Source of the DNA: Chitinophagales bacterium
GTDB taxonomy: Bacteria; Bacteroidota; Bacteroidia; Chitinophagales; JADIYW01
Reading direction: 5' to 3'
DNA length: 64,000 nucleotides
Assembly: GCA_046329775.1 (NCBI GenBank)
Contig: JAXLTX010000003.1
Location: 507,153-571,152 of the forward strand
Of the stretch, positions 1,165 through 56,143 are shown one piece after another. Under the pieces are notes generated by a model. That model saw only the letters and a list, made by a program, of their open reading frames with translations. It was not told the origin of the DNA and made no database searches. The translations under genes were made by a program, and so were the position numbers. Each line of letters opens with the position of its first letter. Position 1 is the first letter of the stretch.

Positions 1165-2117
1165 CACCGCAGAAATATCGCCATATCGCAGACTCCCTCC
1201 ATACCTTGAAAAAGGCTGTGAGTACTGTATTGCTTGCACTGGTCTTATTGTTTGGATTCAATGCCTGCGAAAAGAACTTAAAACTGAACTATGCCGATAC
1301 CGAAATCAAACAGGTGGTGATTGCAAATCTGAATCCGGGTGCATTTTTAAAAGTCAACATCAGCAAGAGCAAGAGACCGGATGATTTTTCGTCCGTTGTA
1401 TTTTTGCCGGACTGCAAGGTGGATCTTTATGAAGATGATCTTTTTACAGAGACATTACCATTTATCCTGAAAGACACCTTATCCGGATTAGGCTATTACA
1501 CCTCTTCGTATAAACTCAGGCCCAACCATGTCTATAAAATAATTTCCACTCATTCCTCATTAGGTACGGTGGAAGCAACAGAGTATTTGCCGAACATTCC
1601 TACGCTTCTCAACTTCACCCTTCTGCAACATGCGGACAGTCTGCACCCGAACATTACGGGACAATATGTCCTTACCTTTCAGGATAGTGCATCATTCAGC
1701 AACTACTATTTTCTGTCTACCTATTATAAGGTGCTGAAACCCACCATCAACAATGACGGTGATACCATATATAAATATGAATACATGGGAGTTCCGTCTT
1801 ATGCTCCGGAAATTCCCAATCCGGGCAATTTCACGCGCTCCTTTACGTCAGATGCGAACTTTGACGGACAGACCAGCTCCTTCTCGGTCAGTTTTCCCAG
1901 CCAATACAATACCCTTTTCAAAGAGATTGAACTGATTATAGAACTCTCAAATACCGGAAAGAATTTCTACGACTGGAATGTGCAGCAATTGAGATACGGT
2001 ACGGACTACCTGAATGAAGGACAGTTGGAACGTATTAATCTGAAAGGCAATATCATCAATGGTTACGGCCATTTCACGGCGAACAGCAGCGCATACATCG
2101 GCATCCGTATCCGATAG
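1161..2117 (+). CDS. DUF4249 family lipoprotein (TBDR partner)
   Basis: Lipobox FNAC; VNISKS, C-terminal NIINGYGHF; 4-bp overlap with the TBDR stop. True start may be downstream (MKKAVS-like). Confidence 0.75.
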   Translation: MTPQKYRHIADSLHTLKKAVSTVLLALVLLFGFNACEKNLKLNYADTEIKQVVIANLNPGAFLKVNISKSKRPDDFSSVVFLPDCKVDLYEDDLFTETLPFILKDTLSGLGYYTSSYKLRPNHVYKIISTHSSLGTVEATEYLPNIPTLLNFTLLQHADSLHPNITGQYVLTFQDSASFSNYYFLSTYYKVLKPTINNDGDTIYKYEYMGVPSYAPEIPNPGNFTRSFTSDANFDGQTSSFSVSFPSQYNTLFKEIELIIELSNTGKNFYDWNVQQLRYGTDYLNEGQLERINLKGNIINGYGHFTANSSAYIGIRIR

Positions 2118-2127
2118 AGCATAAAAA

Positions 2128-2149
2128 ATGTCCGCCAATGGGCGGACAT
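2128..2149. terminator. Bidirectional intrinsic terminator
   Basis: ATGTCCGCC-aatg-GGCGGACAT 9-bp stem with A/T tracts on both sides, between convergent genes. Confidence 0.8.
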
Positions 2150-2180
2150 ATATTTTAGACATTCAATTCTCTGAGAGAAA

Positions 2181-2402
2181 TCAATATTCATCTTCATTGA
2201 AGAGGAAATCTTCTTTTGTCGGGTATTCCGGCCAGATATCTTCGATACTTTCATATAACTCCTCATCATCATCCAGCTCCTGAAGGTTTTCAATCACTTC
2301 AAGCGGTGCGCCTGTGCGGATGGCAAAATCAATCAATTCATCTTTTGAAGCCGGCCATGGTGCTTCTTCCAAATACGATGCTAATTCTAGTGTCCAATAC
2401 AT
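2181..2402 (-). CDS. DUF2795 domain protein
   Basis: MYWTLELASYLEEAPWPASKDELIDFAIRTGAPLEVIENL matches the highly conserved Bacteroidota DUF2795 sequence. Confidence 0.9.
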   Translation of the reverse strand: MYWTLELASYLEEAPWPASKDELIDFAIRTGAPLEVIENLQELDDDEELYESIEDIWPEYPTKEDFLFNEDEY

Positions 2403-2447
2403 ATTCTTATTCTTTTATTTTAGTGGTTAATTTCTTAAAAGGGATTG

Positions 2448-2455
2448 CAAATATA
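2448..2455 (-). promoter_or_regulatory. Bacteroidota sigma-A -7 element (TATATTTG)
   Basis: Exact TAnnTTTG 46 nt upstream of the DUF2795 start. Confidence 0.6.
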
Positions 2456-2510
2456 TGCCTAAAAATTAAAAATCAAAGCAAAAAATAGACTACTTCTTAT
2501 GAACTGATTA

Positions 2511-3056
2511 TCAATGACTTTTCCACACAATTTCAGACACACCTGCGTCATGAGCCAATTTTCTGGCCAATACGAACAGGAAATCCGATAACCTGTTGAG
2601 GTACTGCATCAATACAGGTTCGGTTTCATCCACCTCTGACAGACGTACGACGCAGCGCTCCGCACGACGGCAGACCGTTCTGGCAACATGGCATGCCGCA
2701 GCCGCCTTATTTCCTCCGGGTAATATAAAAAATTTGAGTTCCGGCAAACGTTCATTCATCTTGTCGATGTATTGCTCTAATAACGTAATCGAAGCATCCG
2801 GTATTTCAGGCAGTATCAGATTTTTCTTTCCCGGTTCTGCGGCAAGATGTGTTCCGATATCAAATAGCCTGCTTTGTATATTATGCAACAGGTCGGTATA
2901 TTCCTTCTCTTCCATGTACGTTGTCACCATACCCAGAAAGGAATTCACTTCATCCACGGTACCGTATGCCTCAATGCGCAATTCCGCCTTTGACAAGCGC
3001 TTGCCACCATACAATGCAGTGGTGCCGGCATCTCCTGTTTTGGTATATATCTTCAT
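2511..3056 (-). CDS. PduO-type ATP:cob(I)alamin adenosyltransferase
   Basis: MKIYTKTGDAGTT, RIEAYGTVDEVNS, FILPGG, ARTVCRRAER, YLNRLSDFLF. Start set at MKIY (3056) rather than the ORF-track start at 3125. Confidence 0.92.
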   Translation of the reverse strand: MKIYTKTGDAGTTALYGGKRLSKAELRIEAYGTVDEVNSFLGMVTTYMEEKEYTDLLHNIQSRLFDIGTHLAAEPGKKNLILPEIPDASITLLEQYIDKMNERLPELKFFILPGGNKAAAACHVARTVCRRAERCVVRLSEVDETEPVLMQYLNRLSDFLFVLARKLAHDAGVSEIVWKSH

Positions 3057-3173
3057 CTCCGTCTTTTTAAATTCAACAACAATGTACGATGCCGGTTCAT
3101 TTTTTTCAATTCTTTTTATAAACAAGAAACCTTTCCTGAATGGAAAGGTTTCTTGTTTATGTTACAAAGAAAA

Positions 3174-3950
3174 TTATTTTCCTTGTGCCTGTTTTTTCAT
3201 GGCTTCTTCAATCATTTTCTGCATAGCTGCCTGATCACCGCCCTGTTGTGGTTTCTGGGCCTCAATGCTTTTCAGTTCCACTTCAAACACCAGCGTTTCG
3301 TTTGGACCGATACCCGCTTGTTGTTGTCCCTGTGCGCCATAAGCCAATTTGCCCGGGATATACAGTTTGTATTTAGAGCCTACGGTCATCAACTGCAATC
3401 CTTCGGACCAGCCCGGTATAACGCCGTTTAGAGGGAAGGTAGCAGGTTCGCCACGTTTGATGGAACTATCAAACACGGTACCGTCCAGCAATGTTCCTGT
3501 GTAATCCACTTTCACCACATCAGACAATGTTGGCTTAGGACCTGTACCTTCTGTGATTACTTCATATTGCAGACCACTTGCCGTTGTTTTCACACCGGCT
3601 TTTTTAGCATTCTCTTCAAAGAACTTTTTTCCTTTGCTTTCGTTTTCCTGCATCATCGCATATGCCTGTGGATTGAAGTGCTTCATCAATACCGTATTGA
3701 TGGTATCACCTCCGAACAATAATTTCTTATTGTTCAATGCTTCATAAATACCACGAGCCAATACTTCGATATTCAAGGTGCTGTCCAACCCGTTTTGTTT
3801 CAGGTTTTCACCCATTTGTATTCCTATGGCATACGACACGGAGTCGATTTCTTTCTTAGGAGCAGAACTTACAAAACTGTTTTTTGATTTGCAGGCAGAC
3901 ATCAACGCCACTACCGCAATCATCATTAATTTAAAAGTGTGTTTATTCAT
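3174..3950 (-). CDS. FKBP-type peptidyl-prolyl cis-trans isomerase, lipoprotein (FKBP_N + FKBP_C)
   Basis: SYAIG, TASGLQYEV, YTGTLLDGTVFDSS, VIPGWSEGLQLM, LAYG, FEVEL; lipobox LMSAC. Confidence 0.95.
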   Translation of the reverse strand: MNKHTFKLMMIAVVALMSACKSKNSFVSSAPKKEIDSVSYAIGIQMGENLKQNGLDSTLNIEVLARGIYEALNNKKLLFGGDTINTVLMKHFNPQAYAMMQENESKGKKFFEENAKKAGVKTTASGLQYEVITEGTGPKPTLSDVVKVDYTGTLLDGTVFDSSIKRGEPATFPLNGVIPGWSEGLQLMTVGSKYKLYIPGKLAYGAQGQQQAGIGPNETLVFEVELKSIEAQKPQQGGDQAAMQKMIEEAMKKQAQGK

Positions 3951-41474: not shown

Positions 41475-41498
41475 GGCTTGCCGTTGCAAGCCTTTTTT
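41475..41498 (+). terminator. Intrinsic terminator
   Basis: GGCTTGC-cgtt-GCAAGCC-TTTTTT. Confidence 0.8.
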
Positions 41499-42714
41499 AT
41501 TTTTGCTTCTGTGACTGTGAAAGCAGCAGCAATGATATGCCTGAAAACATCAGCAGTGCCATGCACAAGAGCAGTTCATTTGCATAAGGAATGCTATTAT
41601 AGCTGAAAGAGGCAATCCCCTGCAACATCAGCACCAACTCATTCAGAAAAATACCGGTCGAAAAAGCTACGAGGCCATATTTCGCAAGCATTCTTACCTG
41701 AACGATATGGAGGGAAAAAATATAACCCAGCAAAAACATTGTAATGACACCCAATAGGACCAGATGCAGATAAGCGATAACGATGGAACGAAAACCAAAG
41801 GCAAGCTGACTTAATGCCGGAATGGTAGAACCAAGCTGCAACAGCAGTTTTATGGTTAATGCCATTGCACTTAGCCCCATCAGCCACCTCCCCTCTTTCG
41901 AAATGCTTTCTGTCAGCAATACTCTGTGGGTAAACAATATCCTGATAAAGATACCCCATGCAAGCACTTGTGCAAATGCGGCAAACACCACCAGGATATA
42001 CATCCAGGTGGGCAATGCCATCCATAATGTGGACAGAAAATAAGCAGGGATGCTTGCTAATGCAAACAGATGAAATACCGTACGGAGCCTTGTGTTTTCT
42101 AAAATGCCGGAAGGCAGCAATGTATGCAGCAAACCCATACAGGCAAAGAAAAACCAGCCGTTGTATTGGAAGTGCAGATAAAAATAAACAGCCGCCAGAT
42201 ACCAGTCCTGGTGAATCATCTTGTTTGCCATCATAAACGCCAGTGCAAAAGTGCCTGCAGATGAGAATACAGCCGACAATAACGCTGCTTTGAGCCAAAG
42301 ATGGGCAATATCATCCTTATTTATTCCATTCAGATCTTTCCAGTACCGGATTGCAAAGGCGTATGATGTAAAGACTGAGAGCGTAGAGAATGTGATGGAA
42401 ACGGCGCCATAACCCTGAATTGGAAAAGCAATCAGCATGCCATAGGCCGTTACAAGATTCGCGAGCAGCAACCACTTATAACGGACAAATTCATCGCGTC
42501 TGTTTGCACGGGACAAATAGACCAGCATCAGCACCATCAAGGTTTGTGTAATCCAGCCGGCAAATGCAAAATGCGAATGTCCATGCAGCAGGTGTTTCTG
42601 ATCGACGAACGGAAGTGAATATAATATCTTGTATCGTAGCACCACGCCGATGGAAGCCACCAACAACAGGTTGAAGATAGAGATCCTAAGGTAACGTTTG
42701 AAAGAAATATCCAT
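41497..42714 (-). CDS. Polytopic membrane protein with conserved His motifs (NnrS / heme-copper oxidase subunit I-like)
   Basis: About 12 TM segments; HGHSHFAFAGW, YLHFQYNGWF, YLHLVLLG; adjacent to the nos/Crp locus. Confidence 0.6.
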   Translation of the reverse strand: MDISFKRYLRISIFNLLLVASIGVVLRYKILYSLPFVDQKHLLHGHSHFAFAGWITQTLMVLMLVYLSRANRRDEFVRYKWLLLANLVTAYGMLIAFPIQGYGAVSITFSTLSVFTSYAFAIRYWKDLNGINKDDIAHLWLKAALLSAVFSSAGTFALAFMMANKMIHQDWYLAAVYFYLHFQYNGWFFFACMGLLHTLLPSGILENTRLRTVFHLFALASIPAYFLSTLWMALPTWMYILVVFAAFAQVLAWGIFIRILFTHRVLLTESISKEGRWLMGLSAMALTIKLLLQLGSTIPALSQLAFGFRSIVIAYLHLVLLGVITMFLLGYIFSLHIVQVRMLAKYGLVAFSTGIFLNELVLMLQGIASFSYNSIPYANELLLCMALLMFSGISLLLLSQSQKQK

Positions 42715-42749
42715 TTTGCAGATTAGAGGCGATGTTTAAAAATCAACTG

Positions 42750-42793
42750 CAAAAATACAGGACACTATATGAATGATTTATGATTTGAATCAT
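42750..42793 (-). promoter_or_regulatory. Crp/Fnr-type box (ATGAT-N4-ATCAT, 42780-42793) plus -7 element (TATTTTTG, 42750-42757)
   Basis: Perfect inverted arms around a 4-nt spacer; 22-nt gap to the -7 element. Confidence 0.75.
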
Positions 42794-43394
42794 TATTCAT
42801 CAGATACACCTTTCCTTTATTGATGGTAAGCATTCCTTTTTCACATAGCTTCTTAATGGTTCTGATAACCGTTTCCACCCTCAAACCCGTCATACCGGCG
42901 AGTTGCTGTCTGGTAAAGTTTATCCGGAATGGTTCGTTGACGGAATGATGATATTTCTCTTTATAGAAGTTGAGCAGAGAGATGATCTGCTGCTCGGGAT
43001 TATGACAGGCAAGCTCCTTTAAAATGAAAAATTTATAGCGCACCCTTTGTGCTAGCAAGCGAGAGAATGCCATATGTAAATCGTAGTTATCCTTTAGCAA
43101 CTGGAGAAATGTTGTCTTAGGCAACTGGATGATTATGGAATCACATTCCGCCATAGAATTGGCTGCATAGGCTTCATCATCAAACAACGGCAACTCTCCG
43201 AAACACTCACCGGGCATTATAATGGACTGGATAAAAACCTTTCCTTCCGCATCATAGTTCACCCAGCTTACCTTCCCTTCCACCAGCTGATAATAAAAAT
43301 TGCACTTCGCCCCTTCAGAGAAAATGAAATCGCCTTTTTTTATCTTTTTATAGACGGCACCTCTTGAAAGCAGTATATCTTCATTTACCATCAT
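42765..43394 (-). CDS. Crp/Fnr family transcriptional regulator
   Basis: GECFGELPL cNMP-type domain; TRQQLAGMTGLRVETVIRTIK HTH; no N-terminal FNR Cys cluster. Start set at MMVNED (43394). Confidence 0.93.
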   Translation of the reverse strand: MMVNEDILLSRGAVYKKIKKGDFIFSEGAKCNFYYQLVEGKVSWVNYDAEGKVFIQSIIMPGECFGELPLFDDEAYAANSMAECDSIIIQLPKTTFLQLLKDNYDLHMAFSRLLAQRVRYKFFILKELACHNPEQQIISLLNFYKEKYHHSVNEPFRINFTRQQLAGMTGLRVETVIRTIKKLCEKGMLTINKGKVYLMNNDSNHKSFI

Positions 43395-43467
43395 GACATT
43401 AAGAAAAATTGCAATGTAATTTAATCCAAATATCACACAAATGCCGTTAATATTAAACAACCTAAAT

Positions 43468-43481
43468 ATGATTTATATCAT
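43468..43481. promoter_or_regulatory. Crp/Fnr-type box ATGAT-TTAT-ATCAT
   Basis: Perfect arms in the divergent crp/nos intergenic region; likely autoregulatory site. Confidence 0.7.
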
Positions 43482-43538
43482 GTTTTGAATTTTTCTACCA
43501 TCTAAATCCATTGGAAAAACAAGCCTTTTCGAGCTATT

Positions 43539-43582
43539 ATGACTGCAATCATAAATCTTTAAAAGTTATCTGTATAACCTTG
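43539..43582 (+). promoter_or_regulatory. Crp/Fnr-type box (ATGAC-TGCA-ATCAT, 43539-43552) plus -7-like TAACCTTG (43575-43582): nos promoter
   Basis: Same 22-nt gap as at 42750-42793. Confidence 0.72.
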
Positions 43583-43601
43583 CAGCATAAAATCAATTCA
43601 A

Positions 43602-44099
43602 ATGAAAAAGTTATTAATTATCCTAAGCATCTCTTCTTTAGCCGCATTCTTTACAGGATGCAATTCGAATCCGTCCAAAGAGGACTTCAGCACCAAAGAA
43701 GAAACCACAGAAACTCCGGCAGCCACCACGACGGAAAATGGCAACCCTTCTTATGACCCGAAAAGAGGAGAAGGTAAATTTACAAAAGTGGAACTGGGTG
43801 CCACACTGGATGCCGCTATGGCCACTTCCGGTGAGAAGGTGTATGGGGTAAAATGTTCTTCCTGCCACAAGACCACGGATGAGAAACTGGTGGGCCCCGG
43901 ATGGAAAGGCGTAACCACACGTCGTACCCCGGAATGGATCATGAATTTCATCACCAATACGGATGCCATGATTGATAAGGATCCTGCCGCACAGGCACAA
44001 CTGGAAATCTGTCTGGTAAGAATGCCGAACCAGAGTTTATCTGATGATGATGCAAGACATCTGCTTGAATTTATGCGCAAAAACGATGGCGTTAAATAA
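43602..44099 (+). CDS. Monoheme cytochrome c lipoprotein of the clade II nos cluster
   Basis: Lipobox FTGC; CSSCH heme motif; distal Met (VRMPNQ); immediately upstream of nosZ. Confidence 0.92.
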   Translation: MKKLLIILSISSLAAFFTGCNSNPSKEDFSTKEETTETPAATTTENGNPSYDPKRGEGKFTKVELGATLDAAMATSGEKVYGVKCSSCHKTTDEKLVGPGWKGVTTRRTPEWIMNFITNTDAMIDKDPAAQAQLEICLVRMPNQSLSDDDARHLLEFMRKNDGVK

Positions 44100-44129
44100 A
44101 ATAATTTGAATACACACTAAATCTAAGAA

Positions 44130-46121
44130 ATGAAAAAGATAAATCTAAATATGGCAGTATGCATCGCTATCATCACAGCGATGGCCATGACAGCCTGCAA
44201 ACCAAAGAACATCGGCAATGCGGTAAGTGCTGATGCTGCTGCAAAAGCATATGTGGCGCCCGGCAAATACGATGCTTTCTACAATTTTGTGAGTGGCGGA
44301 TTCAGCGGGCAGATGAGTGTATACGGCTTACCGAGCGGACGTTTATTAAGAGTGATTCCGGTATTCTCCGTGGACCCCGAAAAAGGCTGGGGGTACAGCG
44401 AAGAGACCAAACCTATGTTAAACACTTCTCATGGTTTTGTGCCTTGGGATGACCTGCACCATACAGAGTTATCACAAACCAATGGTGAAATCGACGGACG
44501 CTGGATCTTCGGCAATGCCAACAATACGCCGCGTGTGGCTCGTATCGATTTGAAAACATTCCGCACGGCAGAAATCATCGAGTTGCCAAACAGTGCCGGC
44601 AACCACTCTTCTCCTTTCATCACCGAAAATACTGAATATGTGGTGGCAGGTACTCGCTTCAGTGTTCCACCGGATAACGCAAACGGAGATATTCCAATCA
44701 ACACCTACAAGCAAAACTTTAAAGGCTACTTAAGCTTCATCAGCGTGGGCAAAGAAGATGGTAAAATGGATATCGCATTCCAGATTGAATGTCCGGGTGT
44801 GAATTTTGACTTAAGCCATGCAGGCAAAGGAAAATCGCACGGATGGTTCTTCTTCTCTTGTTACAATACAGAACAGGCCAACACCATGTTAGAGGTGAAT
44901 GCATCTCAAAAAGACAAAGACTTCATCATGGCGGTGAACTGGAAAAAAGCGGAAGAATACCTGAAAGCGGGTAAAGGCAAAAAAGTTCCTGCAAAATATG
45001 CTCACAACACCTACAGCGACAAAACACACAGTGCCACTTCTGAAATCAAGTCAGAGGTAACGGTGTTAAGCGCCAAAGAACTGAAAGATATCTGCTATTT
45101 CATTCCTTGTCCGAAATCACCACACGGTTGCGATGTGGATCCAACAGGTGAATACATCGTAGGCAGCGGTAAATTGGCTGCATTGATTCCGGTCTTCAGT
45201 TTTGACAAATTACAAAAAGCCATCGCTGCTAAGGACTTCGCAGGAGACTTCGATGGTATCCCTGTCGTCAAATATGAATCCGCCTTATATGGTGAAGTAC
45301 AGAAACCGGGCTTGGGACCTCTGCATACGGAATTTGACGGAAACGGAAATGCCTACACCTCTTTCTTCGTTTCTTCAGAAGTGGTAAAATGGAACATCAA
45401 GGACTTGAAAGTGATAGACCGCGTTCCGACTTATTACTCTGTAGGCCACTTATGTGTACCGGGCGGAGACAGCAAGAAACCGTCTCCGAAATACCTGATT
45501 GCGTATAACAAGATTACCAAAGACAGATACCTTCCAACTGGTCCTGAATTGTCTCAAAGTGCTCAATTGTATGATATCAGCGGAGATAAGATGCAACTGA
45601 TTCTCGACTTCCCGACCATCGGTGAACCACACTATGCACAGGCTGTACCGGCGGAAGTGATCAAAGGAAATTCAGTAAAAATATTCAAGATTGAAGAAAA
45701 CGGAAATCCTTATGCTTCTAAAGGAGAAGGGGCATCCAAAGTAGTAAGAGAAGGTAATAAGGTACATGTATACATGACCTCTATCCGCTCTCACTTCTCA
45801 CCGGACAACATTGAAGGTATCAGAATGGGCGACGAAGTTTACTTCCATGTAACCAACTTAGAACAAGACTGGGACGTACCTCATGGCTTTGCCGTAAAAG
45901 GCGCCAACAATGGTGAGTTGCTCATCATGCCGGGAGAAACACAAACGCTGAAATGGGTACCGGACAGAGTGGGCATGTTCCCGATGTATTGTACCGATTT
46001 CTGCAGTGCGTTACATCAGGAAATGCAGGGATACGTGAGAGTATCACCGGCAGGCAGCAGCGTTCCCCTCACCTTCAGTACGGGCAAAAATCTACCTGCA
46101 GCCACTCCGGAAACAAAATAA
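44130..46121 (+). CDS. nosZ: Sec-dependent (clade II) nitrous-oxide reductase
   Basis: VSGGFSGQ, DDLHH, GNHSS, PKSPHG, PLHTEF, VGHL, EPHYA (CuZ His); CuA motif HGF...CTDFCSALHQEM; no Tat RR; lipobox MTAC. Confidence 0.97.
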   Translation: MKKINLNMAVCIAIITAMAMTACKPKNIGNAVSADAAAKAYVAPGKYDAFYNFVSGGFSGQMSVYGLPSGRLLRVIPVFSVDPEKGWGYSEETKPMLNTSHGFVPWDDLHHTELSQTNGEIDGRWIFGNANNTPRVARIDLKTFRTAEIIELPNSAGNHSSPFITENTEYVVAGTRFSVPPDNANGDIPINTYKQNFKGYLSFISVGKEDGKMDIAFQIECPGVNFDLSHAGKGKSHGWFFFSCYNTEQANTMLEVNASQKDKDFIMAVNWKKAEEYLKAGKGKKVPAKYAHNTYSDKTHSATSEIKSEVTVLSAKELKDICYFIPCPKSPHGCDVDPTGEYIVGSGKLAALIPVFSFDKLQKAIAAKDFAGDFDGIPVVKYESALYGEVQKPGLGPLHTEFDGNGNAYTSFFVSSEVVKWNIKDLKVIDRVPTYYSVGHLCVPGGDSKKPSPKYLIAYNKITKDRYLPTGPELSQSAQLYDISGDKMQLILDFPTIGEPHYAQAVPAEVIKGNSVKIFKIEENGNPYASKGEGASKVVREGNKVHVYMTSIRSHFSPDNIEGIRMGDEVYFHVTNLEQDWDVPHGFAVKGANNGELLIMPGETQTLKWVPDRVGMFPMYCTDFCSALHQEMQGYVRVSPAGSSVPLTFSTGKNLPAATPETK

Positions 46122-46208
46122 TAACTCTTGTTTGATCCTTAATAGTGGAACAGGTGAATGAAAGCCTGTTCCATTTTTTTTGAATCTTCAATTTTTAAAA
46201 TACAAGCC

Positions 46209-47231
46209 ATGCAAAACAATCAATTAAATCTCTGGATCAGGATCGCAGTGGCAATTTGCGGACTTGCTTTATTTGCAGTCTTATTCTTACCCATCTGGAG
46301 AATCGACCTCGCCGCACCGCAATATCCGGAAGGGCTACGCATGCTGATTTATGCCAATAAACTGGGCGGAGATGTAGAAATCATCAATGGACTCAACCAC
46401 TATATCGGGATGAAAACCTTGCATGCGGAAGATTTTATAGAATTCAGTGTATTAACCTATATTATAGGTGTCTATGCCTTATTATTTCTTATTGTTGCAG
46501 CTATCGGAAACAGAAAATTATTATATGCCATGTTCGGACTGTTTGCCGCTTTCGGCGTTCTGGCCATGGTGGATTTCTGGCGATGGGAATACAACTACGG
46601 ACACAACCTTGACCCTAAAGCAGCCATTGTCGTTCCCGGAATGGCTTATCAGCCGCCGCTCATCGGTTTCAAACAACTGCTTAATTTCGGTGCATACTCC
46701 ATTCCGGATATCGGCGGATGGATCTTCATCGGAGTCGGTGTCATACTGATAGTTTGTGTAATCATCGAAGCGAGGGGTACAATTAAATTGAAAAAATCAG
46801 GCTCCCTGACTACAGTAATATTGGGTCTCCTGACACTCACCCTATTCTCTTCCTGTTCGGCACAACCCAAACCGGTAAGGATAGGAATTGACCAGTGCGA
46901 CCACTGCAAGATGACTGTCAGCGACGCACGTTTTCCGGCAGAGATTCTTACCAAAAAAGGTAAAATCTATATTCTGGATGACATCCATTGTGTGCTTGGA
47001 CTTCTGAAAGAAAAACCGGAAATAAAAAAAGAGATAAAAGATATCTTTCTGAGTGATTACACGGGAAATCATTCCTTCATTAATGCTTCCGCTGCACATC
47101 TGATAAAAAGCGTTGAGCTAAGAAGTCCGATGGGCGGCAATATCGCTGCGTTCTCCAACATAGACAGCATGAATATTGTAATGGAAACATTTAAAGCGGA
47201 AAGCGTTATATGGAATGACATCATTCAATGA
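46209..47231 (+). CDS. nosL: NosB-like membrane domain fused to NosL copper chaperone
   Basis: WRIDLAAPQYPEGL, NGLNHYIGMK, YGHNLDP N-terminal domain; CDHCKM and SPMGGN NosL motifs. Start set at 46209. Confidence 0.85.
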   Translation: MQNNQLNLWIRIAVAICGLALFAVLFLPIWRIDLAAPQYPEGLRMLIYANKLGGDVEIINGLNHYIGMKTLHAEDFIEFSVLTYIIGVYALLFLIVAAIGNRKLLYAMFGLFAAFGVLAMVDFWRWEYNYGHNLDPKAAIVVPGMAYQPPLIGFKQLLNFGAYSIPDIGGWIFIGVGVILIVCVIIEARGTIKLKKSGSLTTVILGLLTLTLFSSCSAQPKPVRIGIDQCDHCKMTVSDARFPAEILTKKGKIYILDDIHCVLGLLKEKPEIKKEIKDIFLSDYTGNHSFINASAAHLIKSVELRSPMGGNIAAFSNIDSMNIVMETFKAESVIWNDIIQ

Positions 47232-48463
47232 TTCTCATGAAAATTCTGATTCGATATATAACACTCCTCTTCATTCTGCCGGCATTTGGTGCATCTTATC
47301 AGGTTGACATAAAACATAGCAGCATTCAGCAAGTGATTGACAGATCTTCAGATGGCGATACCATATGGGTGCCAGCAGGAACATATCATGAAAGGAATCT
47401 CCTCATCAATAAAGCCATTACATTGAAAGGAATCGACCATCCGACACTGGACGGCGAAAGCAAATATGAAATCATCTCTATAAAATCCAATCATGTAACT
47501 ATTGATGGATTCAAGATCATACACTCAGGAAGAGGAACTCTGGAAGATCCTGCCGGCATCAAGATTTATGACGGAAGAAACGTGACCATCATCAATAATA
47601 TCCTGGAAGATAATTTCTTCGGCATTTATACGCAATACGGAAAAAACTGTGTCATCAAGAATAACACCTTAAAGTCTTTTGCTGTGGCAGAGCAACAAAT
47701 CGGCAACGGTATCCATTGCTGGAAGTGCGACAGTATGCAGATTATCGGCAATAAGATTAGCGGACACCGGGATGGCATCTACTTTGAATTTGTCACCAAT
47801 TCCATCATATGGAGAAACATCTCCACCAAAAACATACGTTACGGCTTGCATTTCATGTTCTCCAACAACGACGCCTACATCACCAATGTATTCAAGAATA
47901 ATGGCGCCGGTGTCGCCGTTATGTTTACACATGGCGTGAAGATGTTCAACAACCTTTTTGAAGAAAACTGGGGTGATGCCGCGTACGGTTTACTGTTGAA
48001 AGAAATTTCGGACAGCTACATGGATGGCAACCGTTTTATCAAAAATACCAGCGGAATATTTATGGAAGGTGTCAGCCGCGTACAGATGCAGGATAATCTC
48101 TTCCAGAACAACGGTTGGGCCATGAAGGTCCAGGCCAGTTGCATGGACATCACGGTGACCAGAAATAATTTCATCAGCAATACCTTTGACGTAGGCACGA
48201 ACGGTTCTCTGGTTCTGAACACCTTCAACGGCAACTATTGGGATAAATACGAAGGCTATGATCTGAATAAAGACAAACTCGGAGACGTTCCCTTCAGACC
48301 TGTCAGCCTTTTTTCCATGATTCTGGAAAAAATGCCGCCTGCCATGATGCTGTTCCGGAGTTTCATGGTGACCATCCTGGATAAGACAGAAAAGATAATC
48401 CCGAGCATCACACCGGAAAACCTGAAAGACGACTCCCCATTAATGAAAGCGCTACCCTTATGA
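47228..48463 (+). CDS. nosD: Nitrous-oxide reductase maturation protein NosD
   Basis: Beta-helix repeats; GNGIHCW, HRDGIYFEF, RYGLHFMFS, GNYWD. Confidence 0.95.
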   Translation: MILMKILIRYITLLFILPAFGASYQVDIKHSSIQQVIDRSSDGDTIWVPAGTYHERNLLINKAITLKGIDHPTLDGESKYEIISIKSNHVTIDGFKIIHSGRGTLEDPAGIKIYDGRNVTIINNILEDNFFGIYTQYGKNCVIKNNTLKSFAVAEQQIGNGIHCWKCDSMQIIGNKISGHRDGIYFEFVTNSIIWRNISTKNIRYGLHFMFSNNDAYITNVFKNNGAGVAVMFTHGVKMFNNLFEENWGDAAYGLLLKEISDSYMDGNRFIKNTSGIFMEGVSRVQMQDNLFQNNGWAMKVQASCMDITVTRNNFISNTFDVGTNGSLVLNTFNGNYWDKYEGYDLNKDKLGDVPFRPVSLFSMILEKMPPAMMLFRSFMVTILDKTEKIIPSITPENLKDDSPLMKALPL

Positions 48464-49173
48464 TCACCGTATCAAATGTGATAAAGAAATTTGGCAAACT
48501 GGCCGCGCTCGATGACGTTTCCATCGACTGCAAGAGCACGGAATGCATTGCCCTGATTGGGCCGAACGGCAGCGGAAAGACCACGCTGATCAAAAGCATA
48601 CTGGGCATGGTGGTTCCTGACAAAGGCACCATCCTGTTCAATGAAAGAAATATTGCAAACGACTGGACATACCGCAGCCAAATCGGCTATATGCCGCAAA
48701 TCGGAAGATACCCCGAAAACATGACCATAGGACAGGTATTCGAAATGATGAAAAGCATCCGGAAAGATGATGATACGCAGCTGGATGAAGAATTATATGT
48801 TGAATTCGGATTGGATAAGCTATCCGACAAAAGGATGGGTACCTTGTCCGGCGGAACCCGGCAGAAAGTGAGCGCCACGCTTGCCTTCATGTTCAATCCG
48901 GATGTGTTGATACTCGACGAACCCACGGCTGGTTTGGACCCCGTGTCTTCTGAAATCCTTAAGGAAAAAATCATCCGTGAAAAAGAGAAAGGGAAACTGG
49001 TACTCGTCACCTCCCACATCCTGAGTGAACTGGATGACCTGGTGACGCATGTCATCTTTATGCAGGACGGGAAACTGAAATTCCATAAATCCATAGAAGC
49101 ATTGCGTAACGAAACGGGAGAAGTAAAATTATCTAAGGCGATTGCCAGCATCATGTTAAACGCAGCACATTGA
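48460..49173 (+). CDS. nosF: ABC transporter ATPase NosF
   Basis: GPNGSGKT, LSGG, ILDEP; located between nosD and nosY. Confidence 0.93.
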   Translation: MITVSNVIKKFGKLAALDDVSIDCKSTECIALIGPNGSGKTTLIKSILGMVVPDKGTILFNERNIANDWTYRSQIGYMPQIGRYPENMTIGQVFEMMKSIRKDDDTQLDEELYVEFGLDKLSDKRMGTLSGGTRQKVSATLAFMFNPDVLILDEPTAGLDPVSSEILKEKIIREKEKGKLVLVTSHILSELDDLVTHVIFMQDGKLKFHKSIEALRNETGEVKLSKAIASIMLNAAH

Positions 49174-49937
49174 AAAAGATTATAAAATTTGTCATCATCG
49201 ATATCCTCAGAAATAAGATTGTTCTGGTGTATACTTTATTCCTGCTGATTACCTCCTTAAGTGTCTTTAATCTGGAAGACAATACTGCCAAAGGGCTGTT
49301 GAGTTTACTGAACCTCATCCTGTTTATTGTCCCTTTGGTTTCCATCATTTTTTCCACCATTTACATCTACAACAGCGCGGAATTCATTGAACTCCTCGTC
49401 AGCCAGCCGCTGCAACGCAAGAACATCTGGTTGAGCCTGTTTTTCGGACTTGCCGGCTCCATGGTGCTGGCGTTCTTCATCGGCGCAGGCATCCCGATAT
49501 TGCTGTATGAGGCATCCCCCACCGGTCTGATGATGCTGGGCATAGGATGCATCATTACCGTCATCTTCGTGGCCATCGCATTTCTTACGACGGTGAACAC
49601 GCGGGATAAGGCAAAAGGAATCGGCACCGCAATCTTGTTGTGGCTGTATTTCGCCCTGCTGTTTGACGGTCTCGTTCTGTTCATCCTGTTCCAGTTCTCC
49701 GACTATCCGCTGGAAAAGGCGGTGGTCGTCATCAGTGCCCTCAATCCAATTGACCTCGGAAGAATACTGATCCTGTTGCGGCTGGATGTATCCGCACTGA
49801 TGGGTTACACCGGTGCCGTGTTCAAGGATTTTTTCGGCACCAATGTGGGACTCGTTGTCGCCTTTACAACGCTGCTGCTCTGGTGTGTACTTCCTATAGG
49901 ATTATCTGTTCTCAAATTCAGAAAAAAAGACTTATGA
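49170..49937 (+). CDS. nosY: ABC transporter permease NosY
   Basis: Six-TM ABC-2 type; SQPLQR, NPIDLGR; TTG start overlapping nosF. Confidence 0.9.
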   Translation: MKKIIKFVIIDILRNKIVLVYTLFLLITSLSVFNLEDNTAKGLLSLLNLILFIVPLVSIIFSTIYIYNSAEFIELLVSQPLQRKNIWLSLFFGLAGSMVLAFFIGAGIPILLYEASPTGLMMLGIGCIITVIFVAIAFLTTVNTRDKAKGIGTAILLWLYFALLFDGLVLFILFQFSDYPLEKAVVVISALNPIDLGRILILLRLDVSALMGYTGAVFKDFFGTNVGLVVAFTTLLLWCVLPIGLSVLKFRKKDL

Positions 49938-49984
49938 TGAAATTTTATCTGCACGCCGTGCGATGAATTTAAAAATGAATATCT

Positions 49985-50359
49985 ATGAAAAAGGATATTA
50001 AAAACAGGGCCGATATCGAATTGTTAGTGGATACCTTCTACGACAGGGTCAGGAATGACAAAATCATCGGTTATTTCTTTACAGATATTGTAAATATGAA
50101 CTGGAAAAAACATCTGCCGGCCATGTACAATTTCTGGGAGAACATCGTCTTCTTTACGGGAAATTATGAAGGCAATCCTTTAACCCTGCATCAGCACCTC
50201 AACAGGATTACCAATATTAACAAGAAGCATTTCAACCGATGGAACAAACTGTTCATCGCCACTACCGATGAATTATTCGAGGGAGAGAAGGCCACATTGC
50301 TGAAAAACAAAGCAATCAGCATCTCTTCAGTGATACAAAAGAATCTTTTCAAAAAATAA
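49985..50359 (+). CDS. Group III truncated hemoglobin
   Basis: DIELLVDTFYDRVR, HLPAMYNFWE, Y.GNP...H, HFNRWNKLF..T.DELFEG. Confidence 0.9.
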   Translation: MKKDIKNRADIELLVDTFYDRVRNDKIIGYFFTDIVNMNWKKHLPAMYNFWENIVFFTGNYEGNPLTLHQHLNRITNINKKHFNRWNKLFIATTDELFEGEKATLLKNKAISISSVIQKNLFKK

Positions 50360-50387
50360 AATTTTCAAAACCTTAAAAACAACTCCA

Positions 50388-51119
50388 ATGGATACACAAA
50401 ATAAGACAATAGGCGAAATGGTAGCGCAAGACTACCGCACAGCAGCTGTTTTCAAAAAACATAAGATTGATTTCTGTTGCAAAGGCAACCGCAGCATCCA
50501 GCAGGTATGTGAAGAAAAGAAACTGGATGTCAACATGCTCACAGAAGAATTGGATTCCGTGACGAAACCCATGGAGAGCAATGTGATTGACTTCAACTCC
50601 TGGCCAATGGATCTGCTGACAGATTATATCGAAAAGAAGCACCACCGTTATGTGGAAGAGAACATTCCTGTACTCCTGCAATACCTGAATAAATTATGTA
50701 AGGTGCATGGACCACAACACCCCGAATTGTTTGAAATCAACAGGGAATTCAACGAATGCGCAGGCGCACTGAGCGCTCACATGAAAAAGGAGGAACTCGT
50801 ATTGTTTCCCTATATCCGCAAGATGGTGAAGACCATGCTTGCACGTCAGGAAATGGGACAGGCACCGTTTGGCACCGTTGAAAACCCCATCCACATGATG
50901 ATGCACGAACACGACACGGAAGGCGAACGCTTCAGGAGAATCGCCCTGCTGAGCAATGACTATACGCCGCCGGCAGATGCCTGCAATACCTACCGGGTGG
51001 CCTACAACCTGCTGAAGGAATTTGAGAATGATCTGCATACCCACATTCACCTGGAAAACAACATCCTTTTCCCGAAAGCGGTAAAAACTGAATCTTTACT
51101 TAACACATCTGTCGCCTGA
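50388..51119 (+). CDS. ric: Iron-sulfur cluster repair di-iron protein (RIC/YtfE/ScdA)
   Basis: IDFCCKG, HHRYV, HMKKEE.VLFP, MMHEHD, HIHLENNILFP. Confidence 0.95.
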   Translation: MDTQNKTIGEMVAQDYRTAAVFKKHKIDFCCKGNRSIQQVCEEKKLDVNMLTEELDSVTKPMESNVIDFNSWPMDLLTDYIEKKHHRYVEENIPVLLQYLNKLCKVHGPQHPELFEINREFNECAGALSAHMKKEELVLFPYIRKMVKTMLARQEMGQAPFGTVENPIHMMMHEHDTEGERFRRIALLSNDYTPPADACNTYRVAYNLLKEFENDLHTHIHLENNILFPKAVKTESLLNTSVA

Positions 51120-55305: not shown

Positions 55306-55872
55306 TTATTTTGCCGGTGGGAGCAACACACCGTCTATTACATGGATGATTCCGTTGCTGGCCGGAATGGAGGCAACAATCATTGCCGTTCCGTTGAGCA
55401 TAATTTTTCCGTCTTTCTTGCTGACCTTCACATTACCGCCATTCACCATTCCGAGTGACTGACCATCCTGCAATGATTCAGCACTTAAAGAACCTACGTA
55501 AACATGATACTGAAGAATATCAGCCAGGTCGTTCTTCTTTTCAGGTTTCAATAATCCCTCTACCGTACCGGCAGGTAATTTATCAAAAGCGGCATTGGTA
55601 GGTGCAAATACGGTAAAAGGTCCGGCATTGCTTAAGGCATCAACCAATTCTGCCGCTTTGACGGCCGTTACCAGCGTCGTGTGGTCTTTACTGCCTACTG
55701 CAACCTGTACCACATTCTTTGCAGATTCATCATCCAGCACCGCAGATTGTCCAGCACCCTGCTCCTGCTCGGTTGCATCAGATGTACCGCTATCTGCCGT
55801 GCCCTTGTTATTACAGGAAATCATCAGAAAGCTCATGCAAGCGGTTAATAAGATTATTACATTCTTTTTCAT
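55306..55872 (-). CDS. Fasciclin (FAS1) domain lipoprotein
   Basis: Lipobox MISC; TVFAPTNAAF (H1), ILQYHV, SNGIIHVIDGVL (H2). Start set at MKKNV. Confidence 0.92.
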   Translation of the reverse strand: MKKNVIILLTACMSFLMISCNNKGTADSGTSDATEQEQGAGQSAVLDDESAKNVVQVAVGSKDHTTLVTAVKAAELVDALSNAGPFTVFAPTNAAFDKLPAGTVEGLLKPEKKNDLADILQYHVYVGSLSAESLQDGQSLGMVNGGNVKVSKKDGKIMLNGTAMIVASIPASNGIIHVIDGVLLPPAK

Positions 55873-55907
55873 AATGGTGTGTTTTGACATTTAAAAATAA
55901 ATACATA

Positions 55908-55983
55908 CAATACTACCATTATTGTCAAAAGATATTTATGCGTGGAATCATACTTTTCCGGAAATAAAGATGACAGTTATCAG
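55908..55983 (-). promoter_or_regulatory. Two Crp/Fnr-like boxes (55938-55951, 55970-55983) plus -7-like TAGTATTG (55908-55915)
   Basis: ATGCG-TGGA-ATCAT and ATGAC-AGTT-ATCAG; the proximal box is again 22 nt from the -7-like element. Confidence 0.6.
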
Positions 55984-56032: not shown

Positions 56033-56060
56033 AAAGCCCCACATTGCTGTGAGGCTTTTC
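56033..56060 (-). terminator. Terminator after tRNA pair
   Basis: AAGCCTCAC-agcaat-GTGGGGCTT (G-U pair) followed by a T-tract on the minus strand. Confidence 0.65.
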
Positions 56061-56068
56061 TTGGTTAG

Positions 56069-56143
56069 TCGGGATGGCTGGATTCGAACCAACGACCTCC
56101 TGGTCCCAAACCAGGCATTCTAACCGGACTGAACTACATCCCG
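56069..56143 (-). tRNA. tRNA-Pro(TGG)
   Basis: Acceptor CGGGATG/CATCCCG; anticodon arm CCTGG-TT-TGG-GA-CCAGG; GTTCGAATC T-loop; CCA not encoded. Confidence 0.95.

What the first reader, a model, noticed from the sequence alone, without database searches (positions are those of the whole stretch)
42750..43582. A readable Crp/Fnr regulon code: ATGAY-N4-ATCAT placed exactly 22 nt from the Bacteroidota -7 element
Seen: boxes at 42780-42793 (ATGAT-TTGA-ATCAT), 43468-43481 (ATGAT-TTAT-ATCAT) and 43539-43552 (ATGAC-TGCA-ATCAT). The first and third are each 22 nt from a TAnn(T/C)TTG; the second is 22 nt from GGCATTTG, facing the regulator. If the -7 G is at about -6, the boxes centre near -42, the class II position known for Crp/Fnr activators. 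The arms differ from the proteobacterial TTGAT-N4-ATCAA. The regulator lacks the FNR Cys cluster, so it is more DNR/NnrR-like. One box lies inside the regulator's own 3' coding end. An extra palindrome, GTTAT-CTGT-ATAAC (43565-43578), overlaps the nos -7 element and may be a repressor site.
Basis: partly seen in the sequence, partly recalled or inferred. Interest (0 to 1): 0.64.

Follow-up and report, generated by a model that had tools for sequence, protein, structure and literature searches.

The report
Activator boxes controlling N2O-reductase genes
Three short palindromic DNA boxes around a regulator gene in an uncultured Chitinophagaceae bacterium are real, strongly conserved binding sites for an FNR-type activator, and they sit at a fixed distance from the promoters of the genes that destroy the greenhouse gas N2O; this is a familiar kind of switch that I found no paper describing for this phylum.

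Summary

**Nos and membrane-protein boxes.** Each lies 22 nt from a Bacteroidota -7 element. That spacing is kept in about 90 related loci: 62 of 65 nos promoters have N22 and the other 3 have N23. With the -7 box at -12..-5, each box is centred at -41.5, the classic class II position.

**The box facing the regulator.** It is conserved, but its "22 nt from GGCATTTG" geometry is not. Relatives use tandem boxes: box-N8-box-N22-(-7).

**The extra palindrome.** GTTAT-CTGT-ATAAC is not conserved.

**Wider regulon.** The window holds a fourth site, before a fasciclin lipoprotein gene. The same genome has equivalent sites before nirK, norCBQD, cbb3 oxidase, its Cu-ATPase and an FNR-like gene.

**Two possible readers.** The nos-adjacent regulator (helix RVETVIR, invariant in 92 orthologues, no FNR Cys cluster, no cAMP residues) co-occurs with nosZ. 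A Cys-rich FNR-like paralogue (ETAIR) uses the same box in relatives that lack nos. This resembles the ANR/DNR arrangement. The signal is unknown; NO is the best guess.

**Verdict.** A new member of a known kind, with good predictive value. No transcription start site data could be obtained.

The parts
42780..42793 (-). Box 1 (ATGATTCAAATCAT on the minus strand). Predicted activator site for the promoter of the 405-aa membrane-protein gene. It overlaps the last codons (N-D-S-N-H-K) of the regulator gene.
   Evidence: Kept at the same place in 11 of 12 genus loci and in most of the 76 distant loci that hold the membrane-protein gene. In distant genera it lies 2-5 nt after the regulator's stop codon.
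42750..42757 (-). -7 element TATTTTTG of the membrane-protein gene promoter, 22 nt downstream of box 1. The predicted start site is near 42745.
   Evidence: In 71 distant loci the TTG of the -7 element ends 30 nt after the box in 49, 29 nt in 11 and 31 nt in 3.
41497..42714 (-). Target gene for a 405-aa, 12-helix membrane protein with no Pfam or NCBIfam hit. The model has the fold of heme-copper oxidase subunit I (CcoN/NorB).
   Evidence: AF2 model pLDDT 84. Foldseek against CcoN and NorB gives TM 0.70-0.78 at 10-13% identity. It follows the regulator in nearly all 80 loci.
42765..43394 (-). Crp/Fnr-family regulator of 209 aa with recognition helix RVETVIR. It has no N-terminal Cys cluster, and the cAMP-binding Arg-Ser pair is replaced by Tyr-Ala.
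   Evidence: Pfam cNMP_binding plus HTH_Crp_2. Alignment to CRP. Helix invariant in 92 orthologues. Co-occurs with nosZ in the genus: 12 genomes with both, 1 with each alone, 10 with neither, Fisher p = 9e-5.
43468..43481 (-). Box 2 (ATGATATAAATCAT on the minus strand), in the regulator's own promoter region. Probably an autoregulatory site, an input site for the FNR-like paralogue, or both.
   Evidence: Conserved 70-73 nt upstream of the regulator's ATG in genus loci. In distant loci it is the distal member of a tandem box-N8-box-N22-TAnnTTTG promoter.
43438..43445 (-). It is not conserved in congeners.
43412..43419 (-). TTACATTG, an alternative and better conserved -7-like element of the regulator promoter. 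It lies 48 nt from box 2 and 18 nt before the ATG.
   Evidence: TTACATTG, TTACATTA or TTACAATG at the same place in L001-L004 and L010, with the variant TTACAAAG in L011.
43539..43552 (+). Box 3 (ATGACTGCAATCAT), the predicted class II activator site of the nos operon promoter.
   Evidence: Present in 11 of 12 genus loci; the 12th contig ends before the site. In distant genera it takes the hybrid form ATGAY-N4-CGCAT in 55 of 65 loci.
43575..43582 (+). -7 element TAACCTTG of the nos promoter, 22 nt downstream of box 3. The predicted start site is near 43587.
   Evidence: Spacer N22 in 62 of 65 distant loci and N23 in 3.
43602..51119 (+). The nos operon: cytochrome c, clade II NosZ, NosL-like protein, NosD, NosF, NosY, a 124-aa weakly globin-like protein, and RIC/ScdA.
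   Evidence: Pfam and NCBIfam.
43565..43578 (.). Palindrome GTTAT-CTGT-ATAAC overlapping the nos -7 element. Judged a chance feature, because its right arm is part of the -7 box.
   Evidence: Not conserved in genus loci or distant loci. 5-N4-5 palindromes are expected about once per kb.
55938..55951 (-).
   Evidence: PWM scan and sequence. Box-N22-(-7) is kept in 12 of 12 genus orthologues.
55908..55915 (-). -7 element TAGTATTG of the fasciclin gene promoter, 22 nt downstream of the fourth box.
55306..55890 (-). Fasciclin (FAS1) lipoprotein gene, a predicted regulon member. Within the genus it is found in the genomes that hold nosZ or the nos regulator (all but G009), and in G020 it is the first gene of the nos operon.

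Best explanation
**What the boxes are.** They are binding sites for dimeric Crp/Fnr-family activators whose recognition helix is E-T-x-I-R. The consensus is tATGAYt-N2-aRTCATa. This is the FNR box with A in place of T at the outermost position.

**Single-box promoters.** At the nos operon, the 405-aa oxidase-fold membrane-protein gene and a fasciclin lipoprotein gene, one box ends 22 nt upstream of the sigma-A -7 element. That centres it at -41.5. There a bound dimer can replace the missing -33 contact and recruit RNA polymerase, which is class II activation.

**Likely reader.** The dedicated reader is most likely the divergently encoded regulator (42765-43394). It has no FNR cysteines and no cAMP-binding residues. 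Its genomic partners are nos, RIC/ScdA, a globin-like protein and a NorB-fold protein. I therefore infer that it senses NO or a related N-oxide signal, as DNR and NnrR do.

**Second reader.** A Cys-rich FNR-like paralogue at the cbb3 oxidase locus has the same helix type and uses the same box. The two probably form an oxygen-then-NO hierarchy like ANR/DNR.

**Box 2.** Box 2, in front of the regulator gene, is the likely point of autoregulation or of FNR-like input.

**Status of each step.**
- Shown: the sites, their spacing, their conservation, the regulon membership and the co-occurrence.
- Inferred: binding, activation, the -41.5 position, which paralogue acts where, and the signal.
For: - **Sites and chance.** The sites are real and the window count is above chance.
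- **Conservation of place.** All three are kept in 12 congeneric loci at 57-75% protein identity. They are also kept in 80 loci from Ferruginibacter, Flavihumibacter, Flavipsychrobacter and Sediminibacterium.
- **N22 spacing.**
  - nos: 62 of 65
  - membrane-protein gene: 49 of 71 exact and 63 of 71 within 1 nt
  - ric: 30 of 31
  - fasciclin: 12 of 12
  - proximal box of the regulator promoter: 35 of 69
- **Position.** The sigma-A -7 box lies at -12..-5 in Flavobacterium TSS maps (PMC9723704), which gives -41.5. Nss boxes in Campylobacterota start 48-49 nt before the TSS (PMC11539149).
- **Recognition helix.** RVETVIR is invariant in 92 orthologues and present in 26 of 28 phylum-wide relatives. 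It differs from FNR (E-T-I-S-R) at the position that reads the outermost base, and the box differs at that base (and established FNR/CRP knowledge; Rodionov 2005).
- **Co-occurrence.** Regulator and nosZ go together in the genus, p = 9e-5.
- **Other respiratory sites in this genome.** nirK (tandem), norCBQD, ccoNO (tandem), ccoI (tandem), fnr and hemA.
- **FNR-like reader.** FNR-like paralogue with N-terminal C10, C13 and C22 and helix ETAIR. Its tandem boxes persist in congeners that lack both nos and the nos regulator.
Against: - No transcription start site, binding or expression data exist.
- Two paralogues share the helix type, so sequence alone cannot say which one acts at nos. One congener (G020) keeps a box before its nos operon without the adjacent regulator.
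- No conserved heme or metal ligand was found in the window's regulator, so NO sensing rests on gene neighbourhood only.
- Box 2's geometry in this genome is ambiguous. There are three candidate -7 elements, and -67.5 is not a canonical position if TTACATTG is used.
- Most genera have a strongly conserved non-palindromic arm (CGCAT) at nos. A simple homodimer-consensus model does not explain this.
Confidence: 0.75

Rival explanations
1. Only the Cys-rich FNR-like paralogue (oxygen sensor) reads these boxes. The nos-adjacent regulator would then bind something else or act differently, and nos would be under plain low-oxygen control.
For: - The FNR-like protein has the same helix type (ETAIR) and an N-terminal Cys cluster.
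- Its tandem boxes persist in genomes without the nos regulator.
- G020 has a box before its nos operon but no adjacent regulator.
Against: - The adjacent regulator's helix RVETVIR is invariant, and its own promoter and both flanking promoters carry the box in about 90 loci.
- Regulator and nosZ co-occur.
- No other conserved motif was seen in these intergenic regions.
Confidence: 0.1
2. The boxes are operators for repression. The bound regulator would block RNA polymerase at nos and the neighbouring promoters until a signal releases it.
For: A box overlapping the -35/-33 region could in principle occlude the polymerase. Some Crp/Fnr proteins repress from such sites (established knowledge).
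Against: - The exact helical-phase spacing (N22 in 62 of 65) and the lack of a TTG -33 element next to the box are the marks of activator-dependent class II promoters.
- The same geometry is used at cbb3 oxidase genes, classic FNR/FixK-activated targets.
Confidence: 0.05
3. One reading: it is a class II site for the regulator's own promoter, using GGCATTTG 22 nt away.
For: The spacing is exact in this genome. In some distant loci the best box is itself 22 nt from TAGTTT(G/A) (L064, L079, L080, L086, L092).
Against: - No congener has a -7-like element at that place.
- GGCATTTG lacks the TA.
- Most relatives use box-N8-box-N22-TAnnTTTG, with the strong box distal.
- A better conserved TTACATTG lies 48 nt from box 2.
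Confidence: 0.3
4. The boxes are chance AT-rich palindromes with no function.
For: The genome has 42% G+C, and 39 exact matches exist genome-wide, many of them inside genes.
Against: Position and spacing are conserved in about 90 loci down to 50% regulator identity, while the surrounding intergenic sequence diverges.
Confidence: 0.01

Closest known systems
ANR/DNR of Pseudomonas aeruginosa and FnrP/NNR of Paracoccus (paired Crp/Fnr regulators of denitrification)
   Same: - One Cys-cluster oxygen sensor plus one Cys-less paralogue next to denitrification genes.
- Both read nearly the same 5-N4-5 box.
- Targets are nir, nor, nos and cbb3 oxidase.
- Class II placement at -41.5.
   Different: - The box is ATGAY-N4-RTCAT rather than TTGAT-N4-ATCAA.
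- The helix is E-T-V-I-R rather than E-T-I-S-R.
- The promoters use the Bacteroidota -7 element and no -35.
- No heme ligand was identified, and the signal is unknown.
- The regulon includes a NorB-fold protein of an unnamed family and a fasciclin lipoprotein.
E. coli FNR at class II promoters
   Same: A palindromic box centred at -41.5, and the same core TGA-N6-TCA.
   Different: - The nos-adjacent protein lacks the N-terminal Cys cluster (tested, not met).
- The outer base of the box differs.
- The sigma factor and promoter architecture are different.
NnrR of alpha-proteobacteria (Rodionov 2005, PMC1274295)
   Same: - A Cys-less Crp/Fnr protein controlling nir, nor, nos and the membrane protein NnrS.
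- Its CGCAA half-site resembles the conserved CGCAT proximal arm at most Chitinophagaceae nos promoters.
   Different: - The NnrR box is TTGCG-N4-CGCAA on both arms, whereas only one arm is of that type here.
- The 405-aa target protein gave no match to any Pfam family, the NnrS family (PF05940) included, even at a permissive E-value threshold of 10.
NssA/B/C of Wolinella and relatives (Crp/Fnr regulators of clade II nos; PMC11539149)
   Same: Crp/Fnr-type control of clade II nosZ. The boxes start 48-49 nt upstream of the TSS, which is the same geometry.
   Different: - The consensus is TTGA-N6-TCAA.
- The phylum and promoter type differ.
- Homology beyond superfamily level was not tested.
HcpR2 of Bacteroides/Porphyromonas (Rodionov 2005; PMC12750200)
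   Same: A Bacteroidota Crp/Fnr protein that responds to NO. The best PDB sequence match of the regulator is a P. gingivalis Crp/Fnr protein (2gau).
   Different: - The HcpR2 motif is GTAAC-N4-GTTAC, and the Glu of the helix is replaced.
- Here the Glu is kept and the motif is FNR-like.
- The HcpR2 regulon is hcp only.

Membership tests
Crp/Fnr superfamily | N-terminal cNMP-binding-like beta-roll domain | tested here: met
   PF00027, E = 8e-20, residues 16-103.
Crp/Fnr superfamily | C-terminal Crp-type helix-turn-helix domain | tested here: met
   PF13545, E = 1.5e-9. Aligned to the CRP recognition helix. The model of an orthologue matches CRP and GlxR at TM 0.77-0.83.
Crp/Fnr superfamily | Palindromic 5-N4-5 (TGA-N6-TCA core) operator | tested here: met
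   Consensus tATGAYtnnaRTCATa from 169 conserved sites.
FNR proper (oxygen sensor) | N-terminal Cys cluster plus a central Cys that ligate a [4Fe-4S] cluster | tested here: not met
   - There is no N-terminal extension.
- C31 is the only Cys invariant within the genus (C64 is kept in 10 of 12), and no Cys is invariant across the family.
- The paralogue P0123 does have C10, C13 and C22.
CRP proper (cAMP receptor) | Arg82-Ser83 phosphate-binding pair | tested here: not met
   These positions align to Tyr76-Ala77.
DNR/NnrR-type NO-responsive activators | Cys-less Crp/Fnr protein whose sites precede nir, nor and nos | tested here: met
   Sites occur before nos, nirK and norCBQD in the same genome. 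Which paralogue binds them is not resolved.
DNR/NnrR-type NO-responsive activators | Heme-dependent response to NO | not testable with these tools
   No invariant His, Met or Cys in the sensor domain. Biochemistry is needed.
Class II activator-dependent promoter | Site centred at -41.5 relative to the mapped TSS | tested here: inconclusive
   The spacing to the -7 element is fixed at 22 nt. With -7 at -12..-5 (PMC9723704) that gives -41.5.
HcpR2 | GTAAC-N4-GTTAC motif and loss of the helix Glu | tested here: not met
   The helix keeps Glu (RVETVIR) and the motif is ATGAY-N4-RTCAT.
REC-Crp/Fnr hybrid regulators (reading taken from earlier scan notes) | A receiver domain fused to a Crp-type HTH, encoded in the genome | tested here: not met
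   Only three Crp-type HTH proteins score above the cut-off in G000, all 209-235 aa. The genome is 92% complete.

The most novel reading that the evidence does not exclude
The nos-adjacent RVETVIR regulators may be a Bacteroidota-specific sensor class with an undescribed cofactor site.

- **Cys set.** Most members (57 of 92) carry C152-x2-C155, which lies in the loop that aligns with CRP activating region 1. They also carry a C-terminal Cys198 and often C64.
- **Link to the DNA site.** This Cys set tracks the conserved non-palindromic CGCAT promoter-proximal arm at nos: 51 of 52 regulators with the set against 4 of 13 without.
- **This genus.** The window's genus has lost both the cysteines and the hybrid nos arm, and its reading frame now runs through box 1.

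If this is real, a metal or Fe-S site in the DNA-binding domain would tune how the activator docks at the promoter. The signal could be NO or even N2O.
Probability: 0.15. Interest if true: 0.75.

Novelty: new member of a known kind. Interest (0 to 1): 0.5.

Why it matters
**Why the organisms matter.** Bacteroidota with clade II NosZ are among the main N2O consumers in soils and wastewater. I found no paper on how they switch the enzyme on. One metagenome paper only notes that rrf2 or nnrR-like genes sit next to Bacteroidetes nosZ (PMC6264515).

**What this locus offers.**
- A concrete, testable model with two candidate regulators.
- A 16-bp box and a fixed 22-nt rule that predicts start sites to the nucleotide.
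- A regulon list: nos, nirK, nor, cbb3 oxidase, RIC, a NorB-fold protein and a fasciclin lipoprotein.

**Practical value.**
- Cultured Flavihumibacter strains carry the same locus, so the experiments are feasible.
- The rule can be used to annotate activator-dependent promoters in thousands of Bacteroidota genomes.
- It points to two uncharacterised proteins as parts of N-oxide respiration.

Tried and rejected
- **Single-protein locus search.** Searching genome contigs with the regulator alone found nothing. The alignment-based search worked.
- **Strict genome scan.** Scanning for box-N22-TAnn[TC]TTG found only the nos and membrane-protein sites. It missed the tandem promoters, where the exact box is the distal one, and the hybrid CGCAT arms. 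A PWM scan recovered some of these. That PWM is built from pattern-selected sites and penalises T at the first position, so it missed the proximal TTGAT-type boxes at cbb3.
- **Weak regulator hits.** Those in nos-less congeners (L015-L019) turned out to be other RVETVIR paralogues without boxes, not the FNR-like protein, so they were uninformative.
- **Box-like sequence inside nosZ.** It encodes the CuZ ligand motif D-L-H-H (window 44449) and was rejected as a site.
- **First ric scan.** It found nothing because the -7 pattern was too strict. Relaxing it showed 30 of 31 at the N22 position.
- **Foldseek of the regulator model.** It returned only generic CRP, GlxR and Vfr matches and gave no clue to the ligand.
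- **Extra palindrome as a repressor site.** Rejected for lack of conservation.
Full report
**1. The observation**

The three 14-mers are at the stated coordinates:
- ATGATTTGAATCAT, 42780-42793
- ATGATTTATATCAT, 43468-43481
- ATGACTGCAATCAT, 43539-43552

They are the only matches to ATGAY-N4-RTCAT in the 64-kb window. About 0.58 were expected, and 2 of 100 shuffles reached three. The whole 2.96-Mb genome holds 39 matches.

The spacings to -7 elements are also as stated:
- Box 1 lies 22 nt from TATTTTTG (minus strand, 42750-42757).
- Box 3 lies 22 nt from TAACCTTG (43575-43582).
- Box 2 lies 22 nt from GGCATTTG (minus strand, 43438-43445).

Given how often TAnn[TC]TTG occurs in this genome, two of three boxes having one at exactly 22 nt has a chance probability of about 6e-6.

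**2. Genes around the boxes**

| Coordinates | Strand | Gene product |
|---|---|---|
| 41497-42714 | - | 405-aa membrane protein, no family hit |
| 42765-43394 | - | Crp/Fnr regulator (cNMP-binding-like domain plus HTH_Crp_2) |
| 43602-51119 | + | cytochrome c, Sec-type (clade II) NosZ, NosL-like, NosD, NosF, NosY, a 124-aa weakly globin-like protein, RIC/ScdA |

The organism is an uncultured Chitinophagales/Chitinophagaceae bacterium.

**3. Comparative test**

Twelve congeneric genomes carry an orthologous regulator at 57-75% identity. Eleven of the twelve genus loci keep box 1 (L012 lacks it). All twelve keep box 2. Box 3 is present in every locus whose contig reaches that far.

An alignment-based search then returned 80 more loci at 50-59% identity. 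They come from Ferruginibacter, Flavihumibacter, Flavipsychrobacter, Sediminibacterium and unnamed Chitinophagaceae. Gene order is almost invariant: nosD, nosL, nosZ and cytochrome c on one strand, and on the other the regulator, the membrane-protein gene and often ric.

Spacing in these distant loci:

| Promoter | Result |
|---|---|
| nos | box, then 22 nt, then TAAnCTTG in 62 of 65; 23 nt in the other 3 |
| membrane-protein gene | TTG of the -7 element ends 30 nt after the box (= N22 plus an 8-mer) in 49 of 71; 29 nt in 11; 31 nt in 3 |
| ric | -7 element ends at +30 in 30 of the 31 loci with a box |

The surrounding intergenic sequence is otherwise poorly conserved. So the boxes and the 22-nt rule are under selection.

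**4. Position relative to the start site**

In the Flavobacterium psychrophilum TSS map, the sigma-A TAnnTTTG box lies at -12 to -5 (PMC9723704). A 14-mer ending 22 nt upstream therefore spans -48 to -35 and is centred at -41.5. That is the canonical class II position of CRP and FNR (established knowledge).

It also matches the Nss boxes of Campylobacterota, which start 48-49 nt upstream of the TSS (PMC11539149). No TTG -33 element follows the boxes, as expected for activator-dependent promoters.

The -41.5 assignment is therefore an inference.

**5. Box 2 and the regulator's own promoter**

Box 2 is conserved 70-73 nt upstream of the regulator's ATG.

In the distant loci the regulator promoter is a tandem: a strong box, 8 nt, a degenerate second box (CTG/ATG-N6-ATCAT), 22 nt, then TAnnTTTG. 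The TTG ends 52 nt after the distal box in 35 of 69 loci. That places the boxes at about -63.5 and -41.5, two helical turns apart.

In the window the proximal box is degenerate (TGTTTAATATTAAC, 43446-43459). A better conserved TTACATTG (43412-43419) lies 48 nt from box 2. Box 2's exact role here therefore stays open.

**6. The box in the coding end**

In the window's genus the regulator's tail N-D-S-N-H-K is encoded by box 1 (aAT GAT TCA AAT CAT aaa). D and H are nearly invariant there. The DNA site probably constrains those codons.

In the other genera the protein ends 2-5 nt before the box, often in ...GKVYC. The overlap is thus a genus-specific extension of the reading frame, not a general design.

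**7. The extra palindrome**

GTTAT-CTGT-ATAAC is not kept in congeners or distant loci. Its right arm is simply the TAAC of the -7 element. Perfect 5-N4-5 palindromes occur about once per kb by chance. I reject it as an operator.

**8.

Sites found beyond the three boxes:

| Target | Site |
|---|---|
| Fasciclin lipoprotein gene (55306-55890) | fourth site in the window, ATGATTCCACGCAT (55951-55938, minus strand), N22, TAGTATTG; N22 kept in 12 of 12 genus orthologues |
| ccoNO | ATGATAAAAGTCAT-N8-TTGATAGCTGTCAT-N22-TACCTTTG |
| Cu-ATPase ccoI operon | the same tandem layout |
| FNR-like gene | single box |
| nirK operon (28-kb contig, nirK divergent from an Rrf2 gene) | tandem pair, N22, TAAGTTTA |
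| norCBQD (same contig) | single box, N22, TTAATTTT |
| hemA | candidate site |
| TetR gene | candidate site |
| 127-aa gene | candidate site |

Nine of the 39 exact boxes in the genome lie in the three respiratory loci.

The strict pattern is too narrow, however. The nos box of most genera is a conserved hybrid, ATGAY-N4-CGCAT, in 55 of 65 loci, always with CGCAT on the promoter side.

**9. Who reads the boxes**

The genome (92% complete) encodes only three Crp-type HTH proteins.

*The nos-adjacent regulator.*
- Its helix is RVETVIR, invariant in 92 orthologues and present in 26 of 28 relatives sampled across the phylum.
- Against CRP it has R180 to V, E181 kept, G184 to I and R185 kept.
- Against FNR (E-T-I-S-R, established knowledge) the Ser that reads the outermost T:A pair is Ile. 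This fits the one-base difference between ATGAT and TTGAT (Rodionov 2005).
- It has no N-terminal Cys cluster, and Tyr-Ala stands in place of the cAMP-binding Arg-Ser.
- In the genus it co-occurs with nosZ: 12 genomes with both, 1 with each alone, 10 with neither, p = 9e-5.

*The FNR-like paralogue (P0123), at the cbb3 locus.*
- It has C10, C13 and C22 plus central cysteines, and the helix ETAIR.
- Its tandem boxes persist in congeners that lack both nos and the nos regulator (G007, G014, G018). It therefore reads the same box type.
- One congener (G020) keeps a box before a fasciclin-cytochrome c-nosZ operon without the adjacent regulator.

*The third Crp protein* has an unrelated helix.

The picture is that of ANR/DNR or FnrP/NNR: two paralogues, one box family. 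Which protein acts at which promoter needs experiments.

**10. The signal**

Across the phylum the RVETVIR regulators sit next to nos, the 405-aa protein, RIC/ScdA or the globin-like protein. The 405-aa protein models with pLDDT 84. It superposes on CcoN and NorB at TM 0.70-0.78 with only 10-13% identity. It keeps a subset of invariant histidines: H44, H46, H48, H181 and H317.

RIC and NnrS-like membrane proteins are hallmark members of NO-responsive regulons in Proteobacteria (Rodionov 2005), and this organism makes NO itself through nirK. NO is therefore the most likely signal. No ligand residue was identified, so this is an inference.

**11. A side observation**

Of the 92 orthologues, 57 carry C152-x2-C155 plus a C-terminal C198, and often C64. 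By alignment, the CxxC falls in the loop equivalent to CRP activating region 1 (my inference numbering).

Having the CxxC goes with the CGCAT arm at nos: 51 of 52 with it against 4 of 13 without. The window's genus lacks both. This count is not corrected for phylogeny.

**12. Comparison with what is known**

- The mechanism is the well-known Crp/Fnr class II activation of denitrification genes.
- What differs is the phylum-specific promoter context (the -7 element), the A-variant box, the invariant RVETVIR helix, the hybrid and tandem site layouts, the unknown sensor, and two uncharacterised regulon members.
- I found no paper describing this. PMC6264515 notes only that rrf2 or nnrR-like genes neighbour Bacteroidetes nosZ.
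- Earlier notes of this scan report the same box in other Bacteroidota genomes. I treated them as leads.
- Their attribution of the box to a REC-Crp/Fnr hybrid does not apply here, since none is encoded.

**Verdict**

- It is incomplete on one point, because two regulators share the code.
- I rate it a new member of a known kind, of moderate interest because it makes the control of clade II N2O reduction in Bacteroidota directly testable.

Noticed in passing
L021-L100, regulator residues 64, 152, 155 and 198 in window numbering: Most orthologues (57 of 92) have a C-x2-C just before the HTH plus a C-terminal Cys, and often C64. The window's genus lacks all three. Presence of the CxxC goes with the CGCAT proximal arm at the nos promoter (51 of 52 against 4 of 13). 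The count is not corrected for phylogeny.
   Followed up: partly
window 41497-42714 (-): The 405-aa protein has no Pfam or NCBIfam family, yet it has over 6000 homologues. It models as a heme-copper oxidase / NorB-fold 12-helix protein and retains only some of the canonical histidines. It is a conserved partner of the regulator across Bacteroidota.
   Followed up: partly
window 44449-44462 (+), inside nosZ: ATGACCTGCACCAT looks like a one-mismatch box but encodes D-L-H-H of the CuZ site. The same look-alike recurs in nosZ of many loci. It is a coding artefact for any motif scan.
   Followed up: yes
G000 C8:383284-384069 (L101 9285-9992, minus strand): The FNR-like paralogue's box is followed after 22 nt by TATTTACA, which ends only 3 nt before the ATG. 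The mRNA may be leaderless, or the annotated start may be wrong.
   Followed up: no
L104 (G020) 219-3366: One congener lacks the nos-adjacent regulator, and its nos operon starts with the fasciclin gene (fasciclin, cytochrome c, nosZ) behind a single box. This physically links fasciclin to nos.
   Followed up: partly
G000 C6 (L169 6100-15409): A 28-kb contig carries norCBQD and a porin-like gene followed by nirK with a C-terminal cytochrome c domain. It also carries an FGE-sulfatase-like gene, SCO1/SenC and a divergent Rrf2 (NsrR/IscR-like) regulator. The organism is therefore a nitrite-to-N2 denitrifier, not a nosZ-only N2O reducer.
   Followed up: partly
window 49985-50359 (+): A 124-aa protein with weak globin and protoglobin similarity (E = 0.008) lies between nosY and ric. 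Its homologues sit next to RVETVIR regulators in other Bacteroidota classes.
   Followed up: no
window 56060-56120 (-): The 3' end of a tRNA gene and a terminator-like hairpin lie just upstream of the fasciclin promoter. They bound that promoter to about 100 nt.
   Followed up: no
G000 C9:574137-574775 (L102 3138-3773, minus strand): The third Crp-family protein (helix SRVVVSR) lies about 0.4 kb from a rhodanese-like gene, just outside the window. No ATGAY boxes are nearby and its role is unknown.
   Followed up: no
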